NCBI GenBank assembly: GCA_016716885.1
Contig: JADJUV010000025.1
Span: 2,688-66,687 of the forward strand
Origin: Candidatus Trichofilum aggregatum
Lineage (GTDB): Bacteria; Chloroflexota; Anaerolineae; Promineifilales; Promineifilaceae
Direction of reading: 5' to 3'
DNA length: 64,000 bases
Shown here: positions 36,594 to 53,162 of the stretch, in pieces
Layout of the letters: every line of letters starts with the position of its first letter
Position numbering within the stretch: the first letter of the stretch is position 1
Notes under the pieces: model-generated
The model's database searches: none
What the model was told of the DNA's origin: nothing
The model's input: only the letters and a program-made list of their open reading frames with translations
Program-made: the position numbers and the translations under genes

Positions 36594-36621
36594 ATGACAG
36601 ACTCAGTATCGCGAGTATAAT
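36594..36621 (+). promoter_or_regulatory. Candidate promoter of the cytochrome operon
   Basis: ATGACA, 16-nt spacer, TATAAT (36616-36621), 55 nt upstream of ATG 36677 within a ~490-bp AT-richer spacer. Confidence 0.4.
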
Positions 36622-36676
36622 GGGCTGAACCGTAATTGTCAGTTCCAGTGTCATAACTGAATGGAGGAATGTCGTT

Positions 36677-37954
36677 ATGCGGCGAACCATCTTGATACTT
36701 TTGGCTTTTATCGCGGCCGCATCTTTTCTCACGGCCTGTATTGAACAACCAGGTCCCATGGGGCCTGCTGGCCCACTAGGGGACCAAGGCCCCCCTGGTC
36801 CCGAAGGCAGTGTGGGTCAAACCGGTGCACCCGGCACACCCGGTCGTGATGGGGCCAGCTATGTTCCGCCCGCCTTTGTTGGTAGTGAAACCTGTGCTGA
36901 ATGCCATGAGAGTATTTACACCGTCTTCCAACAAAGTGGTCACCCCTGGAAACTAACCCCCGTTGTCAATGGCGAACCGCCTGACTATCCCTTCAGTAGC
37001 ATCCCCAGACCACCCGAAGGTTATACCTGGGACGACATCAGCTATGTAATTGGGGGATACAACTGGAAAGCTCGTTTCCTTGATCAGCAAGGTTATATCA
37101 TCACCGGAACGGATGAAAATGCGACGACGCAATACAATCTGCCCAACGATGAATTGGGAACCAATGGTGGCTGGGTTGGGTATCATGCGGGCGAGGCCAA
37201 CTTGTCCTATGATTGCGGAGCCTGTCACACCACTGGTTATAGCCCTGAAGGTCATCAGGATGGGTTGCCCGGCATTGAAGGAACCTGGGCCTTCCCCGGT
37301 GTTCAATGTGAAGAATGTCATGGGCCGGGCAGTCTACATGCTAACCACCCGATGGCTTATGGGATGGAAATAGAGCGGGACGCGGCCGCGTGCGGCGAGT
37401 GTCATGTCCGTGGTGACTTTACCGAAGTTAATGCTGGTGATGGGTTCATTCAGCATCATGAACAATACGAAGAGTTATTCCAGAGTAAACACGCCGTTAT
37501 AGATTGTGTTTTATGCCACGACCCCCATTCCGGTGTTGTCCAACTACAAGAAGCGGGCGAACAAACCACCCGTACCCTCTGTGAAAACTGCCATTTCAAA
37601 CAGGCAGAAAACCAGAACAACGAAGTTCACAAAAGCCTGACCATCGAATGTGTTCAGTGCCATATGCCTCGACTCGTTCGTAGTGCGGAAGGCGACGCGG
37701 CCGCATTCACAGGGGACATTCGCACCCACATGGTCGCCATTGACCCCACCCAGATCAGCCAGTTCAGCGAAGACGGTACGGTGGCCCTGTCCCAGATTTC
37801 TCTGGATTATGCCTGTCGTACCTGCCATCGTCCTGATGGTCTTGGTCTCCCTAAAACAGATGAAGAGTTACTCCAGGTAGCTATTAATTATCACATCCCC
37901 GTACCTGCACCGGTTGAAGCACCTGCTGAGGCCACCGCGACAACAACACCGTAA
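36677..37954 (+). CDS. Octahaem c-type cytochrome lipoprotein with an N-terminal collagen-like Gly-X-Y stalk
   Basis: Lipobox FLTAC and 11 consecutive GXY triplets. Eight CXXCH motifs: CAECH, CGACH, CEECH, CGECH, CVLCH, CENCH, CVQCH, CRTCH. GGAGG RBS. Confidence 0.9.
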   Translation: MRRTILILLAFIAAASFLTACIEQPGPMGPAGPLGDQGPPGPEGSVGQTGAPGTPGRDGASYVPPAFVGSETCAECHESIYTVFQQSGHPWKLTPVVNGEPPDYPFSSIPRPPEGYTWDDISYVIGGYNWKARFLDQQGYIITGTDENATTQYNLPNDELGTNGGWVGYHAGEANLSYDCGACHTTGYSPEGHQDGLPGIEGTWAFPGVQCEECHGPGSLHANHPMAYGMEIERDAAACGECHVRGDFTEVNAGDGFIQHHEQYEELFQSKHAVIDCVLCHDPHSGVVQLQEAGEQTTRTLCENCHFKQAENQNNEVHKSLTIECVQCHMPRLVRSAEGDAAAFTGDIRTHMVAIDPTQISQFSEDGTVALSQISLDYACRTCHRPDGLGLPKTDEELLQVAINYHIPVPAPVEAPAEATATTTP

Positions 37955-37965
37955 GGAGAATTAAG

Positions 37966-39615
37966 GTGCTTCGTCAACGTAGCCGTTTTTTCCCTCTGCT
38001 TTTAACTACACCAGCCCTGTTGTTTATAATGGGGTTGGTGTGGTATTGGCTGGCGCCTTCGTCCGCGGCCGCATCTTCAGCCACCCTTCACCCGTCTATG
38101 GGGATAACCCAGGTAATGGCCCAAACCGAGCCAACTCCGCAACCGGCCGATGATAGTGCCTGTCGGCTCTGTCACAGCGACACGACGGCCCAAATCACGT
38201 TTCCCTCTGGTGAGACGCTACCGGTTCAAGTAACCCTGGACGAGTTGGATAGTTCGGCTCACGGTCAGCACAGCGAGGCCAACCTGGCCTGTACCTCTTG
38301 CCATGCCCCGGCCGAATATCAATATCCTCATCAGCCCATTGAAGCACCGGACCTCCTTTCCTACCAGTTAGCCCAATCTCAGGCTACTTGCGAACGATGT
38401 CACCAAAACGCGCATATTACCAGCCATGAGGAAATTGATGATGTAGCTCCCGTCACCTGCGTCTCCTGCCATTCAGCCCATGATGTCCAGGTTAAAGAGG
38501 CCTGGCATGAAGGGGAAGGGGTAGAAGAGAGTTGTGTGGCCTGTCATGAGAGCAATGAGGTGGGGGTTCGCGGCCGCGCCGAACTCACTCAAGTCATCCA
38601 AAACGGCTTATTCACCACCACCGCCCCCACCAATACCTACTGTGCTTCCTGCCACAGCCTGGAAAACTTCTCGCTCACCCTTGCCAGCGGCGAACTTCTA
38701 GACCTGACCGTTACCGAGGACACCTTAGCCCATTCTGTTCATGGCGAAGGCAACGAATGGCAAGCCCTGGCCTGTGTAGATTGCCACGATGGTTATAGTT
38801 TCCCTCATGAGCCAGTCACCGCTGAAAATCTGCGTGCCTATAGCCTGGAAAAATACCCCGCTTGTGCTGAATGTCACCAACCTAAATACGATCAAGCTCA
38901 GGACAGCGTCCATGCTATCGCTCTAGAAGAAGGTACGTTGGAAGCCGCCGTTTGTACCGATTGCCACGGAGCGCATGACACCCCACCGCCCGCCGAACCC
39001 CGTGAACGCATTGCCCAAACCTGCCGCCAATGTCATAGCACCATCTTTGATGAATATGCCGAAAGCGTTCATGGCGAAGCCCTTCTCAGCGAAGGCAACG
39101 AAGATGTGCCCACCTGTACCGATTGTCACGGCGTTCATAACATTAACGACCCCACAACGGCCCTTTTCCGTGTGCGTTCCCCTGAGTTGTGTGCCAGTTG
39201 TCACGCTGACAACGAATTGATGAACAAATACGAAATCTCGACCGAGGTCTTTGATACATACGTGGCCGATTTTCACGGTACAACCGTCACACTGTTTGAG
39301 CATCAAGACCCAAACGTTGAGACTAACAAAGCGGTTTGTTACGATTGTCATGGTGTTCATGACATTCAAAAACCGGACGATCCTGAATCAGGTATCAAGA
39401 ACAACCTGCTCGAAACCTGTCGCCAATGCCATCCTGACGCCACGGAAAACTTCCCTGACTCCTGGACGAGCCACTTCCGGCCATCCCTGGATAACAACCC
39501 CCTGGTCTATCTCGTAAACTCGTTTTACTGGGTCGTGATTCCGGGAACGCTGGGGTTCTTTGGTTTTCTGGTTGTGACAGATATTTACCGGCGTTTCATT
39601 CTGCGCCGTCGTTAA
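37966..39615 (+). CDS. 14-haem c-type cytochrome with N-terminal signal/anchor and C-terminal TM helix
   Basis: Fourteen CXXCH motifs, many in repeated S-x-HG...C-x-x-CH-G-x-H modules. C-terminal LVYLVNSFYWVVIPGTLGFFGFLVVTDIYRRFILRRR. GTG start after AAGGAGA. Confidence 0.9.
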   Translation: MLRQRSRFFPLLLTTPALLFIMGLVWYWLAPSSAAASSATLHPSMGITQVMAQTEPTPQPADDSACRLCHSDTTAQITFPSGETLPVQVTLDELDSSAHGQHSEANLACTSCHAPAEYQYPHQPIEAPDLLSYQLAQSQATCERCHQNAHITSHEEIDDVAPVTCVSCHSAHDVQVKEAWHEGEGVEESCVACHESNEVGVRGRAELTQVIQNGLFTTTAPTNTYCASCHSLENFSLTLASGELLDLTVTEDTLAHSVHGEGNEWQALACVDCHDGYSFPHEPVTAENLRAYSLEKYPACAECHQPKYDQAQDSVHAIALEEGTLEAAVCTDCHGAHDTPPPAEPRERIAQTCRQCHSTIFDEYAESVHGEALLSEGNEDVPTCTDCHGVHNINDPTTALFRVRSPELCASCHADNELMNKYEISTEVFDTYVADFHGTTVTLFEHQDPNVETNKAVCYDCHGVHDIQKPDDPESGIKNNLLETCRQCHPDATENFPDSWTSHFRPSLDNNPLVYLVNSFYWVVIPGTLGFFGFLVVTDIYRRFILRRR

Positions 39616-39623
39616 GGGGAAAC

Positions 39624-40493
39624 ATGGAAAAAACTGTGCCACAACCTGCAAAAGTCTATCCACGCTTTCGCCTGGGCGCTCGCATTGAGCACTTTATCCT
39701 GATGACCTCATTCACCGTTCTGGGGGTAACCGGATTGGCGCAAAAATATGCGGTCATTGCCCCGGGCGAATGGCTCATTGATGTGATGGGTGGTATTGAG
39801 CTGACAAGATGGATTCACCGCCTGGCCGCTGTCGTTCTGGTTCTAGGGTCTGCTTATCATTTGCTGACATCTGCCTATCGTCTATTTGTGAAGCATGAAC
39901 AGATGCAAATGATTCCTGATAAGAAAGATTTGCAGGATATGCTGGATACGATTCGCTACAACCTGGGTTTGATAAAGCAGCATCCTAAAATGCGAAAGTT
40001 TAATTTTGGCGAGAAATTTGAGTATTGGGCGGTTGTTTGGGGCACGCTCATTATGGCCATTACTGGGTTTGTTTTGTGGAACCCTATCGCGTTTTCCTCA
40101 GTATTTCCTGGGCAACTTATACCGATGGCCAAAGCCGCTCATGGTGGTGAAGCGTTGTTAGCTGTGCTCGCCATTATTCTCTGGCACATGTACAACGTTC
40201 ATATTAAACATTTCAATCCCAGTATCTTTACCGGCAATCTTCCCCGTCATCAGATGGAGGAGGAACATGCCTTAGAACTGGAGCGGTTAGAGGCAGGAGA
40301 GCCACCCTGGCCCGAACTGGCTCTGCCGGTTTTGCAAAGACGCTTACGGGTTTTTGTGGTTGCTAGTATCCTGGTCAGTATTGTTGTTGTTGCTGTTGTG
40401 GTATGGGCCATCACGTTTGAAGAGACAGCTATTACGACCATACCCCGTGTAACGCGTGAAATTTTTGTCCCAGCGGGAACCACAGTCCCATAA
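39624..40493 (+). CDS. Dihaem cytochrome b membrane subunit (FdnI/HydC-like family)
   Basis: Four to five TM helices with conserved His pairs (IEHFILM, WIHRLAAVVLVLGSAYHLL, AHGGEALLAVLAIILWHMYNVH). Starts 8 nt after the upstream stop. Confidence 0.8.
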   Translation: MEKTVPQPAKVYPRFRLGARIEHFILMTSFTVLGVTGLAQKYAVIAPGEWLIDVMGGIELTRWIHRLAAVVLVLGSAYHLLTSAYRLFVKHEQMQMIPDKKDLQDMLDTIRYNLGLIKQHPKMRKFNFGEKFEYWAVVWGTLIMAITGFVLWNPIAFSSVFPGQLIPMAKAAHGGEALLAVLAIILWHMYNVHIKHFNPSIFTGNLPRHQMEEEHALELERLEAGEPPWPELALPVLQRRLRVFVVASILVSIVVVAVVVWAITFEETAITTIPRVTREIFVPAGTTVP

Positions 40494-40574: not shown

Positions 40575-42831
40575 ATGAAGCATCACAGAATAAGGCCCTA
40601 CTTGCTAGGGGGGTTGCTTCTGCTGTTTTCTCTGATCCTGGTCGCCTGTTCCCAAGAGCCGGAAACAGTAGTTGAAACCCGAGTTGTCGAAGTTACCGTA
40701 GAAGTTCCGGGTGAAACGATTACAGAAGAGGTCGAAGTTACCCGGGTTGTGGAGGTTGCGCCAGAAGTACCGGCGGGACCTTCTGTACCGTATGAAGAGC
40801 AGTGGGCATCCTCAGCTCATGCTGACGCCAGCGCGGAAGCGTTTGTGCATTGGAATGAGGAAGACCCGGCTGAAGTGCCGGATCGGTGCGCCAAATGCCA
40901 TAGCACCCCTGGCTTCCAGGATTTCCTGGGAGCGGATGGGAGTGAAGCTGGTGTTGTGAACGCGGCCGCGCCCATCGGCTCAACCGTTGAATGTGTGGCT
41001 TGTCACAACGAAGTTGCCTCTCACCTGGATAGTGCGGTTTTCCCCTCCGGGGCTGAACTCACTGGTTTAGGGCCAGAAGCGCGTTGTATTCAGTGTCATC
41101 AGGGCCGCGCATCTACTGTACAGGTCAATGACTCCATCGCCACTGCCGGTCTGACGGAAGCGGACGAGGACGTGGTGAGTGAGGATTTGGGCTTTACCAA
41201 TATTCACTACTTCGCGGCCGCGGCTACTCAATACGGCACCTCGGTCATGGGCGGTTACGAATATGTTGGCAATGCCTACGATGCCCGTTTTGACCATGTC
41301 GAGCCATACAACACCTGCGTGGACTGTCATGATCCCCATACCCTGGAAGTCAAACTCGACGAATGTGTCGTCTGTCATGAAGGCGTTGAAGACGCTGAAG
41401 ATTTGGTAGACATCCGTATGGTTGGCTCCCTGGTCGATTATGATGGCGATGGCGATATGGAAGAAGGAGTTTACTTCGAAATCGAAGGATTGCGTGACAT
41501 GCTTTATCAAGCAATGCAAGCCTATGCTACCGAAGTTCCTGGTACAGCTATCGTTTATGACGAGGCAAACCATCCCTACTTCTTCATTGATAGCAACGGC
41601 GACGGCATTACCGATGAAGCCGAAGTCAACGGCGACAATCGCTTTCAATGCCTGGACAGCCCGTTTAGCCAAAGCGGCTTACAACTACCAGGTTTCCCTC
41701 AAGGATCCGGGTCGTTTCGCGCATGGTGGCAAATATATCATCCAGTTACTGTATGACTCTATCGAAAACCTGAATGCGGGTATGACCACCCCGGTTGACT
41801 TGACCAATGCCAATCGGCTAGATCGAGGCCACTTTGCGGCTTCCGAAGAAGCGTTCCGTCATTGGGATGGTGAAGAAGATGGTGGCATTGTGCCTGGCAC
41901 ATGTAGCCGTTGCCATTCTGCTGCTGGTCTGCCTCTGTTCGTGACCCAGGGCGTAGCCATTAATCAACCCGCTTCCGGCGGTTTGAACTGTGCCACCTGC
42001 CACAATGACCTGACCACCTTCACCCGCTATGAAGTAGCAACCGTGCCCTTCCCCAGTGGTGTCAGACTGACCAATCCGGAAGAAGACCTGGACAGCAACT
42101 TGTGTATCTCCTGTCATCAGGGCCGTGAATCTACGGCTAGTGTCAACCGATTAATCGGTGGTCTGGCCGACGATGAAGTTTCCGAAAATCTGCGCTTCTT
42201 AAATATCCATTACTTTGCCGCTGGTGCTACGCTGTTTGGCACGGAAGCGAAGGGTGCGTATGAATATGAAGGTCAGACATACGTAGGACGCAATGAGCAT
42301 GTAGGGGCGTTCAATAGCTGTAATGAATGCCATGACACCCATGCGTTGGAAGTACAGGTTGAAGAGTGTGCTGACTGCCACGAAAGTGTTGCTTCGGCGG
42401 AAGATCTGGTAAACATCCGTTTTGAGGAAAACACCATTGATTACGATGGCGATGGCGATGTTACTGAAGGTATTGCTCTGGAAATCGCAACAATGAAAGA
42501 GCAGTTGTATGCCGCCATGCAAGTGTATGCCACGGAAACCGTAGGCACCGGCATTCTCTACTCTGAGGCGGCTTATCCGTACTATTTTGCTGATGCAAAT
42601 GGTAACGGCGTGGCTGATCCCGAAGAGCTGAATAATGATGGTCGTTATAACACCTGGTCACCGCGTTTACTCCGGGCCGCGTACAATTACCAGTATGTGA
42701 CCAAGGACACAGGTGCGTTTGCTCACAATGGTCTGTATGTCTTGCAACTCCTGTATGACGGTCTAACCGACTTGGGAGCAGACACCAGTGCCATGACCCG
42801 CCCCGAAGTACCAGCGCCAGCGGCGGAATAA
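40575..42831 (+). CDS. Decahaem c-type cytochrome lipoprotein made of two tandem 5-haem modules, frame broken at TTT 41643-41645
   Basis: Lipobox LILVAC. Module 1 has CAKCH, CVACH, CIQCH, CVDCH, CVVCH; module 2 has CSRCH, CATCH, CISCH, CNECH, CADCH. ORF 40575..41756 and ORF 41422..42831 join as GDNRF|NAWTARLAKAAYNYQ, matching module 2 (NDGRYNTWSPRLLRAAYNYQ). Confidence 0.85.
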
Positions 42832-42920: not shown

Positions 42921-42954
42921 AAAAATGGGCACCATGTGCCCATTTTTGTTTTCT
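42921..42954 (+). terminator. Intrinsic terminator of the cytochrome operon
   Basis: AAAAATGGGCAC, loop CAT, GTGCCCATTTTTGTTTT. Perfect 8-bp GC-rich stem flanked by A and T runs. Confidence 0.85.
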
Positions 42955-52887: not shown

Positions 52888-53038
<151 letters not shown>

Positions 53039-53162
53039 AACCGAGGAATTAAAAATGCGTGGGACAGGCGTCAGGTTGTTTGACGCCGGGCGATGGGTAG
53101 CAGACAATTGGGGTATGGGACGTGTGGCGTGGGGCGTGTTACGTGGAAGAGTGGGAGCAGAG

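What the first reader, a model, noticed from the sequence alone, without database searches (positions are those of the whole stretch)
36752..36853. Collagen-like Gly-X-Y stalk fused to a multihaem cytochrome lipoprotein
Immediately after the lipobox cysteine the octahaem protein has 11 uninterrupted triplets: GPM GPA GPL GDQ GPP GPE GSV GQT GAP GTP GRD, followed by G. Bacterial collagen-like repeats form trimeric rods of roughly 0.29 nm rise per residue, so this stretch would be about 10 nm long. On a cytochrome this would trimerise the protein and hold the haem domains at a fixed distance from the membrane. That is an attractive way to span a wall or sheath. I am not aware of a described collagen-stalked cytochrome.
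Basis: partly seen in the sequence, partly recalled or inferred. Interest (0 to 1): 0.7.

Follow-up and report, generated by a model that had tools for sequence, protein, structure and literature searches.

The report
Collagen-stalked octahaem cytochrome lipoprotein family
A membrane-anchored eight-haem electron-transfer protein of Anaerolineae bacteria carries a short collagen-like rod of almost invariant length between its lipid anchor and its haem domain, a conserved but apparently undescribed design found in hundreds of species that probably holds the haems about 10 nm off the membrane.

Summary
Chance expectation is about 1e-8 per window, and there is no DNA-level repeat.

All 116 eight-haem homologues (59-91% identity) carry 11-15 triplets, and 77 of 83 loci from species-level genomes carry 9-22. 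Eleven consecutive Gly are invariant in 68 aligned sequences. X and Y positions show collagen-type asymmetry. The spacing from the lipobox Cys to the first haem Cys is exactly 52 residues in 100 of 115 homologues.

The head resembles OcwA, MccA and an S-layer undecahaem cytochrome. The gene heads a conserved cassette: stalked octahaem, TM-anchored 14-haem wire, FdnI-like cytochrome b, decahaem lipoprotein. An unrelated hexahaem lipoprotein in related clusters carries the same kind of stalk.

My best reading is a trimeric triple-helical spacer on a cell-surface electron-transfer module. Trimerisation and function are inferred, not shown. Five full-text searches for collagen plus cytochrome terms found no description. 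I rate it a new variant of known kinds, with interest about 0.68.

The parts
36594..36621 (+). sigma-70-like promoter candidate (ATGACA-16-TATAAT) upstream of the cassette
   Evidence: 11 of 12 consensus matches. This is a consensus match only. The GGAGGA ribosome-binding site at 36663-36668 was read.
36677..37954 (+). Gene for the collagen-stalked octahaem c-type cytochrome lipoprotein (425 aa)
   Evidence: There are 2176 homologues at E<=1e-3; the best is 91% identical.
36677..36739 (+). Lipoprotein signal peptide ending in lipobox L-T-A-C (Cys21)
   Evidence: Sequence pattern. Cys21 is invariant in 68 aligned homologues. No dedicated signal-peptide predictor was available.
36752..36859 (+). 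Collagen-like stalk: 12 uninterrupted Gly-X-Y triplets (aa 26-61)
   Evidence: Gly29 to Gly59 are invariant and Gly26 is 94% conserved. X/Y asymmetry is shown. PF01391 scores 24.1 bits.
36860..36892 (+). Conserved junction (YVPPAFVGSET; family consensus [FY]xPPxF[VI]GSE) between the stalk and the first haem motif
   Evidence: P64, P65, F67, G69 and S70 are highly conserved. The stalk's C-terminal end is fixed relative to haem 1.
36893..37951 (+). Octahaem head domain (8 CXXCH), OcwA/MccA-like
   Evidence: One search gives the motifs. OcwA 6i5b, E 1.7e-13 over aa 65-249. Foldseek hits 6qvm, 4rkm and 6i5b with probability 1.0 but TM 0.37-0.45.
37966..39615 (+). 14-haem cytochrome with an N-terminal signal sequence and a C-terminal transmembrane anchor
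   Evidence: 14 CXXCH and a hydrophobic C-terminus followed by RRFILRRR. NrfB/DmsE-like; 6r2q_A at 3.8e-8.
39624..40493 (+). FdnI/HydC-type membrane cytochrome b
   Evidence: PF01292; formate dehydrogenase gamma models; 1kqf_C at 1.3e-12.
40575..42831 (+). Decahaem lipoprotein (two tandem pentahaem modules), split here by a 1-nt frameshift near 41645
   Evidence: It is a single 742-750 aa ORF in L001 and L002.
42921..42947 (.). Palindromic terminator-like hairpin after the cassette
   Evidence: 12-bp stem flanked by A and T runs. The tool called it on the minus strand; it is symmetric.

Best explanation
The gene encodes a lipid-anchored multihaem cytochrome. I propose that its 36-residue Gly-X-Y segment folds with two further copies into a collagen triple helix.

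Proposed sequence of events:
1. The protein is exported by Sec, and Cys21 is lipidated and stays in the outer leaflet of the cytoplasmic membrane.
2. Haems are attached outside the cell membrane.
3. Three chains associate and the helix zips from the conserved C-terminal junction towards the membrane.
4. The result is a thin, rigid rod of about 10 nm (36 residues at about 0.29 nm each) carrying three OcwA/MccA-like octahaem heads, 24 haems in all, at a set distance from the membrane.

The protein is the first product of a four-gene module. An FdnI-type cytochrome b exchanges electrons with the quinone pool. A transmembrane-anchored 14-haem wire carries them outwards. The stalked octahaem and a separately tethered decahaem lipoprotein act as distal electron-transfer stations in the multilayered, outer-membrane-less envelope of Anaerolineae. 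They most likely serve extracellular or surface electron transfer.

Shown here: the anatomy, the conservation, the length constraint, the operon and the homologies. Inferred: lipidation, triple-helix formation, trimer stoichiometry, the reach, the direction of electron flow and the substrate.
For: 1. Gly periodicity is under strict selection. Eleven consecutive Gly are invariant in 68 sequences that share only 59-91% identity, while the X and Y positions vary with entropies up to 2.9 bits. Only triple-helix packing is known to require Gly at every third residue.

2. X/Y asymmetry is collagen-like over 1449 triplets:
- Leu 9.5% at X, 0.1% at Y
- Gln 4.1% at X, 19.1% at Y
- Asp 1.3% at X, 11.5% at Y
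- Pro 44% at X, 25% at Y

3. The stalk is retained. All 116 eight-haem homologues have 11-15 triplets. Of 83 loci, 77 have 9-22 triplets. At least 572 species-representative genomes encode a relative, nearly all Anaerolineae.

4. It behaves as a ruler. Cys-to-haem-1 spacing is 52 aa in 100 of 115 homologues, 55 in 9 (one extra triplet), 51 in 5 and 56 in 1. In the same operons the decahaem's tether spans 60-88 aa with a continuous spread.

5. The stalk is modular.
- GXY runs of 5-41 triplets precede the same head in 25 of 149 distant representatives, including a Myxococcota protein.
- A hexahaem lipoprotein in L007, L010 and L077 carries 9-16 triplets after its lipobox. It is related to the decahaem module, not to the octahaem.
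- In 1.07 Mb of related loci, every genuine GXY run of 8 or more triplets lies on a cytochrome: the octahaem, the hexahaems, and one contig-end-truncated ORF in L040 with a single CXXCH visible.

6. The head is related to surface cytochromes of wall-bearing monoderms. OcwA matches at E 1.7e-13. Foldseek finds the undecahaem S-layer cytochrome 6qvm, MccA and OcwA.

7. The cassette octahaem / 14-haem / cytochrome b / decahaem is conserved while its flanks differ.

8. Collagen folds C-to-N from a nucleating globular domain (PMC11923368). Here the C-terminal end of the stalk and its junction are the most conserved part, and the N-terminal end frays.

9. Chloroflexota lack an outer membrane and have multilayered envelopes (PMC5808234; PMC13319060).
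Against: - No oligomeric state was tested. The AlphaFold2 monomer gives pLDDT below 50 for the stalk and says nothing either way.
- Twelve triplets without hydroxyproline is short. The family lacks the usual bacterial stabilisers: Thr is about 3% at Y, and Lys is below 0.5%, so there are no KGE/KGD clamps (compared). A free helix might melt near ambient temperature, so stability would have to come from the lipid anchor and the head.
- OcwA is a monomer/dimer, not a trimer.
- The head appears to lack the long C-terminal oligomerisation helices typical of this cytochrome group.
- Fold matches are weak: TM 0.37-0.45 from a model with mean pLDDT 70.
- No expression, localisation or activity data exist for any member.
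- The cultured iron reducer Ardenticatena maritima has at most seven-haem proteins, so it apparently lacks this protein.
- In this window the decahaem partner is frameshifted.
- Some family members lack the stalk altogether (L039, L071, L073, L075, L081).
Confidence: 0.55

Rival explanations
1. The Gly-X-Y segment is a monomeric, extended polyproline-II-like tether. It is a lipoprotein linker that gives the head reach or flexibility and forms no triple helix and no trimer.
For: - Lipoproteins of monoderm-type bacteria commonly carry long linkers after the lipobox. The decahaem partner has one.
- The stalk is short, has no hydroxyproline, and lacks Lys/Thr stabilisers (one search compared).
- The nearest solved relative, OcwA, is a monomer/dimer.
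- AlphaFold2 gives no structure for the segment.
Against: - A single PPII strand does not need Gly at every third residue. Yet 11 consecutive Gly are invariant while X and Y vary.
- X/Y asymmetry, for example Leu 9.5% at X against 0.1% at Y, is hard to explain without inter-chain packing.
- Length is fixed and changes by whole triplets. The ordinary tether in the same operon varies freely.
Confidence: 0.2
2. The triple helix forms, but its main role is attachment or co-assembly rather than spacing. It would dock the cytochrome into an envelope layer such as an S-layer or sheath, or build mixed trimers with other collagen-stalked cytochromes.
For: - X/Y residues Q37, P40 and D58 are nearly invariant. 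This suggests a binding surface on the helix.
- Other cytochrome lipoproteins in related clusters carry similar stalks.
- Envelopes of related Chloroflexota have inner, outer and proteinaceous layers.
- Known bacterial collagen-like proteins are mostly adhesins or surface-fibre components.
Against: - In the standard cassette only one collagen-stalked protein is encoded. Hexahaem stalk lengths (9-16 triplets) do not match the octahaem's.
- The strict length constraint is more naturally explained by spacing.
- No partner has been identified.
Confidence: 0.12
3. Whatever the stalk does, the head is an enzyme for a soluble substrate (nitrite, hydroxylamine, sulfite, tetrathionate or similar) rather than a station for extracellular electron transfer. 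This rival concerns only the function part of the best explanation, so its confidence is not additive with the others.
For: - The head belongs to the NrfA/ONR/MccA/OcwA group, many of which are reductases.
- OcwA itself reduces nitrite and hydroxylamine.
- One source labels a homologue a nitrate reductase cytochrome c subunit, and another a nitrite reductase c552 subunit.
Against: - Eight non-motif His are invariant (H89, H221, H260, H261, H272, H284, H318, H351). That is enough for bis-His ligation of all eight haems, so an open catalytic haem is not indicated. This is an inference.
- There is no CXXCK motif.
- All partners are electron wires plus a quinone-pool cytochrome b.
- Holding an enzyme for a diffusible substrate 10 nm from the membrane has no obvious benefit.
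Confidence: 0.25
4. The run is a chance low-complexity stretch or a recent slippage expansion with no function.
For: The Pfam Collagen score for this protein is below the gathering threshold.
Against: - Expected frequency by chance is about 1e-8.
- There is no DNA tandem repeat.
- The run is conserved in register across hundreds of species at 54-91% protein identity.
Confidence: 0.01

Closest known systems
OcwA, the outer cell-wall nonahaem cytochrome of Thermincola potens (PDB 6I5B)
   Same: - Best sequence match among solved structures, E 1.7e-13 over aa 65-249. The match covers haems 1-3 and the beta-sheet insert between haems 1 and 2.
- Foldseek probability 1.0.
- It is the surface terminal reductase of a bacterium without an outer membrane.
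   Different: - OcwA has nine haems and about 525 aa, with no lipobox and no collagen-like segment. It is a monomer/dimer.
- Only the N-terminal half aligns by sequence.
- TM-score is about 0.4.
Streptococcal Scl1/Scl2 and Bacillus/Clostridioides BclA collagen-like surface proteins (Pfam PF01391)
   Same: - An uninterrupted Gly-X-Y stalk next to a globular domain on the cell surface, giving a 'lollipop' architecture.
- No hydroxyproline is needed.
- As in BclA, the globular part is C-terminal to the stalk. This point is from memory.
   Different: - Those stalks are much longer, for example about 79 triplets in Scl2 (from memory). They are rich in Thr or charged residues and are often length-polymorphic.
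- Here the stalk has 12-14 triplets of fixed length, is Pro/Ala/Gln-rich, and has about 3% Thr and under 0.5% Lys.
- The anchor is an N-terminal lipid, not LPXTG or an exosporium basal layer.
- The head is a redox protein, not an adhesin.
Bucl8 of Burkholderia pseudomallei/mallei (collagen-like domain on an outer-membrane efflux-pump component)
   Same: It is a precedent for a collagen-like segment fused to a non-adhesin protein that is part of a membrane machine. It surfaced in the literature search (PMC7682875; abstract only).
   Different: - The domains are unrelated: an efflux-pump outer-membrane factor against a multihaem cytochrome.
- The organism is diderm.
- I did not read that paper's details on the repeats.
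Collectins, C1q and ficolins, and Hydra minicollagens (short collagen stalks with C-terminal trimeric heads)
   Same: A short triple helix of about 11-27 triplets acts as a rigid spacer for three globular heads nucleated at the C-terminal side. This comparison is from memory.
   Different: These are eukaryotic, hydroxylated and often disulfide-bonded, with heads unrelated to cytochromes. The resemblance is one of design, not descent.
MtrCAB / CbcL-type quinol-to-surface electron conduits
   Same: - The operon combines a quinone-pool cytochrome b with long multihaem wires and distal multihaem lipoproteins.
- The 14-haem protein's N-terminal half matches chain A of 6r2q, which I take to be MtrA (from memory), at 3.8e-8.
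   Different: - No beta-barrel porin is present in the cassette, whose four genes are three cytochromes c and one cytochrome b. Chloroflexota are reported to lack an outer membrane.
- The wire is anchored by its own transmembrane helix.
- The distal proteins are tethered by a collagen stalk or a T/E/V-rich linker.

Membership tests
Collagen triple helix repeat proteins (Pfam PF01391; bacterial collagen-like proteins) | Uninterrupted Gly-X-Y repeats with Gly at every third residue | tested here: met
   The window protein has 12 triplets. Eleven Gly are invariant across 68 homologues.
Collagen triple helix repeat proteins (Pfam PF01391; bacterial collagen-like proteins) | Score at or above the Pfam gathering threshold (27.2 bits) | tested here: not met
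   The window protein scores 24.1 bits. Homologues P0085, P0154, P0143 and P0133 pass at 29.4-72 bits. The shortfall reflects length rather than pattern.
Collagen triple helix repeat proteins (Pfam PF01391; bacterial collagen-like proteins) | Position-specific X/Y residue preferences typical of triple helices | tested here: met
   Pro and Leu are enriched at X; Gln and Asp at Y. The composition is atypical for bacteria, being Thr- and Lys-poor (one search compared).
Collagen triple helix repeat proteins (Pfam PF01391; bacterial collagen-like proteins) | Actual formation of a trimeric triple helix (CD maximum near 220 nm, cooperative melting, protease resistance) | not testable with these tools
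   Only a monomer AlphaFold2 model was possible. The stalk has pLDDT below 50.
NrfA/ONR/MccA/OcwA group of multihaem cytochromes c | Multiple CXXCH motifs with significant sequence similarity to a solved member | tested here: met
   There are 8 CXXCH motifs. OcwA 6i5b matches at E 1.7e-13 over aa 65-249, with weaker ONR and MccA hits.
NrfA/ONR/MccA/OcwA group of multihaem cytochromes c | Shared fold of the whole head domain | tested here: inconclusive
   Foldseek gives probability 1.0 to 6qvm, 4rkm and 6i5b, but TM is only 0.37-0.45 and RMSD 9-11 Å. The model is haem-free with mean pLDDT 70.
NrfA/ONR/MccA/OcwA group of multihaem cytochromes c | Penta-coordinated catalytic haem and the three C-terminal oligomerisation helices described for most members (PMC9250108) | tested here: inconclusive
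   There is no CXXCK motif. Eight invariant extra His could ligate all haems. Only one short helix (aa 395-404) is predicted at the C-terminus. Haem ligation cannot be assigned without a haem-containing structure.
Bacterial lipoproteins (Lgt/Lsp substrates) | Signal peptide with a positive n-region, a hydrophobic core and lipobox [LVI][ASTVI][GAS]C | tested here: met
   The sequence is MRR / TILILLAFIAAASF / LTAC. The Cys is invariant. This is a pattern match only; no LipoP or SignalP run and no chemistry.
Extracellular electron transfer conduits of bacteria without an outer membrane (Thermincola-type) | A chain of multihaem cytochromes from a quinol-oxidising membrane component to a surface-exposed terminal cytochrome | tested here: inconclusive
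   The gene content fits: FdnI-like cytochrome b, a TM-anchored 14-haem, and an OcwA-like head. The cassette is conserved. Surface exposure and activity are untested.

The most novel reading that the evidence does not exclude
Anaerolineae, and sporadically other phyla, use a collagen triple helix as a molecular ruler for respiration. Lipid-anchored homotrimeric 'lollipops' would hold 24 haems at a fixed distance of about 10-12 nm from the membrane, matched to the reach of a co-encoded 14-haem wire. The same stalk module has been placed on at least two different cytochrome families. This would be a previously unrecognised, widespread way to carry electrons across the envelope of bacteria without an outer membrane. 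It would also be the first collagen-like domain with a bioenergetic role.
Probability: 0.4. Interest if true: 0.82.

Novelty: new variant of a known kind. Interest (0 to 1): 0.68.

Why it matters
How filamentous Chloroflexota, which are abundant in sediments, hot springs and activated sludge, move electrons across a thick multilayered envelope without an outer membrane is essentially unknown. This family gives a concrete, testable candidate.

- It is a conserved four-gene module, and its first protein has a built-in spacer of fixed length.
- If the stalk is a triple helix, collagen-like domains gain a role in redox biology beyond adhesins and spore fibres.
- It would link envelope geometry to protein length in a measurable way. 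Stalk length could then serve as a predictor of envelope architecture in uncultured lineages.
- It would offer a natural self-trimerising rigid scaffold for displaying haem domains in bioelectrochemical engineering.
- The family gives annotators a clear signature: lipobox, then GXY x 11-15, then [FY]xPPxF[VI]GSExCxxCH. These proteins are currently labelled 'hypothetical' or 'multiheme c-type cytochrome'.

Tried and rejected
- **Chance or slippage.** Rejected by the analytic expectation of about 1e-8, the absence of a tandem DNA repeat and deep conservation.
- **AlphaFold2 monomer with a 68-sequence alignment.** Mean pLDDT was 70 and the stalk was below 50, so it is uninformative on the triple helix. 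Foldseek TM-scores were low, so I use fold matches only as support for the sequence match to OcwA.
- **Neighbour-joining tree of 135 head domains to count gains and losses of the stalk.** Close relatives (P0002/P0049 against P0020/P0084) were split apart, so the tree is unreliable. I make no claim on the number of independent acquisitions. I state only that stalked and stalkless forms both occur among distant representatives.
- **Taxonomy of distant stalked representatives through cluster look-ups.** Most carry no name. Only Myxococcota (P0154 cluster), Caldilineaceae (P0135) and Zixibacteria (stalkless P0122) were recovered.
- **Literature.** Five searches combined collagen with cytochrome, multihaem or Chloroflexi terms. 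None found a description. The PgcA paper mentions collagen only as an analogy for Pro-rich repeats.
- **Ardenticatena maritima as an experimental anchor.** Its surface cytochrome ARMA_0580 is a different protein (seven haem motifs, identified from a 74-kDa haem-stained band). That is the maximum haem count in that genome, so it does not inform this family.
- **Envelope thickness in Chloroflexota papers.** The layers are described, but I retrieved no dimensions. The match between stalk length and envelope remains untested.
- **PF27154, listed for the roughly 510-aa variants.** It was not recovered by my Pfam copy and I did not pursue it.
Full report
**1. The observation**

ORF 36677-37954 on the + strand encodes 425 residues. 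The product begins MRRTILILLAFIAAASFLTAC. That is a positively charged n-region, a hydrophobic core and the lipobox L-T-A-C with Cys21.

After four residues (IEQP) come GPM GPA GPL GDQ GPP GPE GSV GQT GAP GTP GRD GAS, and then Tyr. The run is therefore 12 triplets, 36 residues, nt 36752-36859.

Eight CXXCH motifs follow, and there is no CXXCK. With a six-frame Gly frequency of 0.083, about 1.4e-8 such runs are expected in the window. Tandem Repeats Finder sees no DNA repeat, and the Gly codons are mixed. Pfam Collagen scores 24.1 bits, just under the 27.2 threshold.

**2. Conservation**

They do not.

- A search of 5.8 billion proteins gave 2176 homologues, and 120 were listed.
- All 116 listed homologues with eight haems, at 59-91% identity, have 11-15 uninterrupted triplets directly after a lipobox Cys.
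- The four 15/16-haem tandem-duplicated relatives of about 720 aa lack the stalk.
- In a 68-sequence alignment, Gly29, 32, 35 ... 59 are all invariant and Gly26 is 94% conserved. X and Y positions vary with entropies up to 2.9 bits. The exceptions are Q37, P40 and D58.
- Over 1449 triplets the X and Y positions are strongly asymmetric. Pro is 44% at X and 25% at Y; Leu 9.5% and 0.1%; Gln 4.1% and 19.1%; Asp 1.3% and 11.5%.

This is the pattern expected for a packed triple helix, not for a generic Gly/Pro-rich linker.

**3. A fixed length**

The number of residues from the lipobox Cys to the first haem Cys is 52 in 100 of 115 homologues. It is 55 in nine (one more triplet), 51 in five and 56 in one. 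The count of 'uninterrupted triplets' varies from 11 to 15 only because the first residues after the Cys do or do not happen to fit G-X-Y.

The C-terminal end of the run and the junction ([FY]xPPxF[VI]GSE-CxxCH) are fixed. The N-terminal end frays.

As an internal control, the decahaem lipoprotein encoded in the same operons has a T/E/V-rich tether with EVTRVVEV-like repeats. Its Cys-to-haem distance ranges continuously from 60 to 88 residues.

**4. Distribution**

- The best 80 are almost all Chloroflexota of the class Anaerolineae: Ardenticatenaceae, Promineifilaceae, Ca. Leptofilum, Caldilineaceae and Anaerolineales. The best identity is 80%, so the window's own species is not among them.
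- Of 83 loci, 77 have 9-22 triplets, five truly lack a stalk and one is truncated.
- In one sub-group the GXY run is followed by an Ala-rich stretch and the spacing varies from 40 to 87 residues.
- A search with the head alone against 1.84 billion cluster representatives gave 1883 hits, 296 of them at E<=1e-30.
- Among the top 149 representatives, 25 carry GXY runs of 5-41 triplets in front of the head. The others have nothing, or Ig-like domains, or other modules.
- One stalked cluster comes from a Myxococcota MAG.
- Longer-stalked homologues pass the Pfam Collagen threshold at 29-72 bits.

**5. The stalk is a module shared between cytochromes**

In 1.07 Mb of related loci, GXY runs of 8 or more triplets outside the octahaem gene fall into two classes. 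Some are reverse-strand shadows of the same DNA. The rest lie on other cytochrome lipoproteins:
- a hexahaem protein of about 345-364 aa in L007, L010 and L077, with 16, 9 and 14 triplets;
- another protein in L040, in an ORF truncated by the contig end with one CXXCH visible;
- a second octahaem in L038.

The hexahaem protein is related to the pentahaem module of the decahaem at 25-29% identity, not to the octahaem.

**6. The head and the operon**

The best solved relative by sequence is OcwA of Thermincola potens (6i5b), at E 1.7e-13 over aa 65-249. OcwA is the surface terminal reductase of a Gram-positive metal reducer. It is a monomer/dimer and also reduces nitrite and hydroxylamine (PMC6703420).

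Foldseek with a mediocre model (mean pLDDT 70) returns three matches at probability 1.0 but TM only 0.37-0.45:
- the undecahaem S-layer cytochrome of Carboxydothermus ferrireducens (6qvm);
- MccA;
- OcwA.

The downstream genes are as follows.
- **14-haem cytochrome.** It has a C-terminal transmembrane helix and is NrfB/DmsE-like. It matches 6r2q_A, which I take to be MtrA from memory, at 3.8e-8.
- **Cytochrome b.** It is FdnI-type and matches 1kqf_C at 1.3e-12.
- **Decahaem lipoprotein.** It is made of two pentahaem modules and has no solved relative.

The four genes are syntenic in Ca. Leptofilum and other MAGs while the flanks differ. They are syntenic in about 40 of the 83 loci. Shorter variants have octahaem / shorter wire / cytochrome b.

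A promoter-like site (36594-36621) and a GGAGGA ribosome-binding site precede the gene. A palindromic hairpin (42921-42947) follows the cassette.

**7. Mechanism**

The strict Gly periodicity, the X/Y asymmetry, the triplet-step length changes and the conserved C-terminal junction all point one way. They fit a parallel homotrimeric triple helix nucleated at the head-proximal end and zipping towards the membrane. This is how collagen helices are described to fold (PMC11923368).

At about 0.29 nm per residue (textbook value) the helix is about 10 nm long. Three lipidated N-termini would sit in the membrane and three octahaem heads at the tip.

Relatives in Chloroflexota lack an outer membrane and have layered envelopes (PMC5808234; PMC13319060). 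A rigid rod about 1.5 nm thick is a plausible way to place a redox head beyond the wall layers.

The FdnI-like cytochrome b and the TM-anchored 14-haem protein would link the quinone pool to that head. This arrangement is analogous to FdnI with the single-helix-anchored FdnH in formate dehydrogenase-N (from memory).

Eight invariant non-motif His could give all-bis-His haems, which would favour pure electron transfer. This is inference only.

**8. Caveats**

- Nothing here demonstrates a triple helix, a trimer, lipidation, location or activity.
- The stalk is short and unlike typical bacterial collagens. It is Pro/Ala/Gln-rich with about 3% Thr and under 0.5% Lys, whereas typical bacterial collagens are Thr-rich and rely on charged residues or salt-bridge clamps for stability. 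It probably depends on tethering at both ends.
- OcwA is not a trimer.
- The cytochrome group usually oligomerises through three C-terminal helices (PMC9250108). These seem reduced here. The stalk might replace them, or the head may simply be monomeric.
- The cultured iron reducer Ardenticatena maritima lacks an eight-haem protein.
- In this window the decahaem gene carries a 1-nt insertion.

**9. Comparison and novelty**

Both building blocks are known: bacterial collagen-like stalks (Scl, BclA, Bucl8) and OcwA/MccA-type multihaem cytochromes. Their fusion is the new element. So are the N-terminal lipid anchor, the fixed 12-14-triplet length and the conserved quinone-to-surface cassette.

Public databases already carry the Pfam co-occurrence, as the precomputed PF01391 hits show. 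Five full-text searches found no paper describing it.

I classify it as a new variant of known kinds. It is a large, coherent, uncharacterised family with an unusual and experimentally tractable design.

**10. Verdict**

Conservation and the length constraint are strong. The triple helix, the trimer and wall-spanning remain to be shown.
- Interest is 0.68.

Noticed in passing
window 40575-42831 (frameshift near 41645-41648): The decahaem lipoprotein gene is split into two overlapping ORFs by a single extra base. The window reads 'cgc ttt c aat' where the 80%-related locus L002 has 'cag ttc aat'. Relatives have one ORF of 742-750 aa. This is either an assembly or sequencing error or a pseudogene.
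   Followed up: partly
window 52889-53040: An intergenic block of extreme homopolymers: about G31, A8, C17, G45, then a GC-rich stretch ending in about C19. It may be a sequencing or assembly artefact (poly-G), or an unusual spacer able to form G/C hairpins.
   Followed up: no
window 40650-40800; also L001-L083 decahaem orthologues: The decahaem lipoprotein has its own tether after the lipobox, built from 2-4 copies of an EVTR[VI]VEV-like motif. It is rich in T, E, V and P. Its length varies, with 60-88 aa from the Cys to haem 1. This is a different and unexplained kind of stalk.
   Followed up: partly
L007 9528-10622; L010 11439-12473; L077 1-1038; L040 11161-11958: Other cytochrome lipoproteins next to the same cytochrome b cassettes carry 9-16 GXY triplets after their lipobox. 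The hexahaem type (345-364 aa) replaces the decahaem and is distantly related to its pentahaem module. The L040 ORF runs off the contig end with one CXXCH visible.
   Followed up: partly
proteins P0154, P0167, P0182, P0183, P0205, P0228, P0259: In some distant homologues, including a Myxococcota cluster, the GXY run is followed by one or more Cys- and Asp-rich 'CWDLDGDGE...D..DC' motifs that look like calcium-binding repeats. These lie before the octahaem head. My Pfam copy does not recognise them.
   Followed up: no
proteins P0121 (1398 aa, 32 CXXCH), P0007, P0010, P0011, P0122 (about 720 aa, 16 CXXCH): The octahaem head occurs as tandem duplications of two to four copies in stalkless proteins. 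One of these (P0122) is from a Zixibacteria MAG. Domain multiplication appears to be an alternative to oligomerisation.
   Followed up: no
L027, L037, L063, L071, L072: Copies 59-65% identical to the window protein sit in MAGs labelled Zixibacteria, Sulfomarinibacteraceae, Methanosarcinales, Desulfarculaceae and Acidimicrobiaceae. This may be binning contamination or horizontal transfer. L071 lacks the stalk.
   Followed up: no
window 36752-36859 minus strand, and the equivalent positions in related loci: The reverse complement of GXY-coding DNA also reads as Gly-Pro-X repeats. Naive six-frame scans therefore report 'shadow' collagen-like ORFs on the opposite strand.
   Followed up: yes
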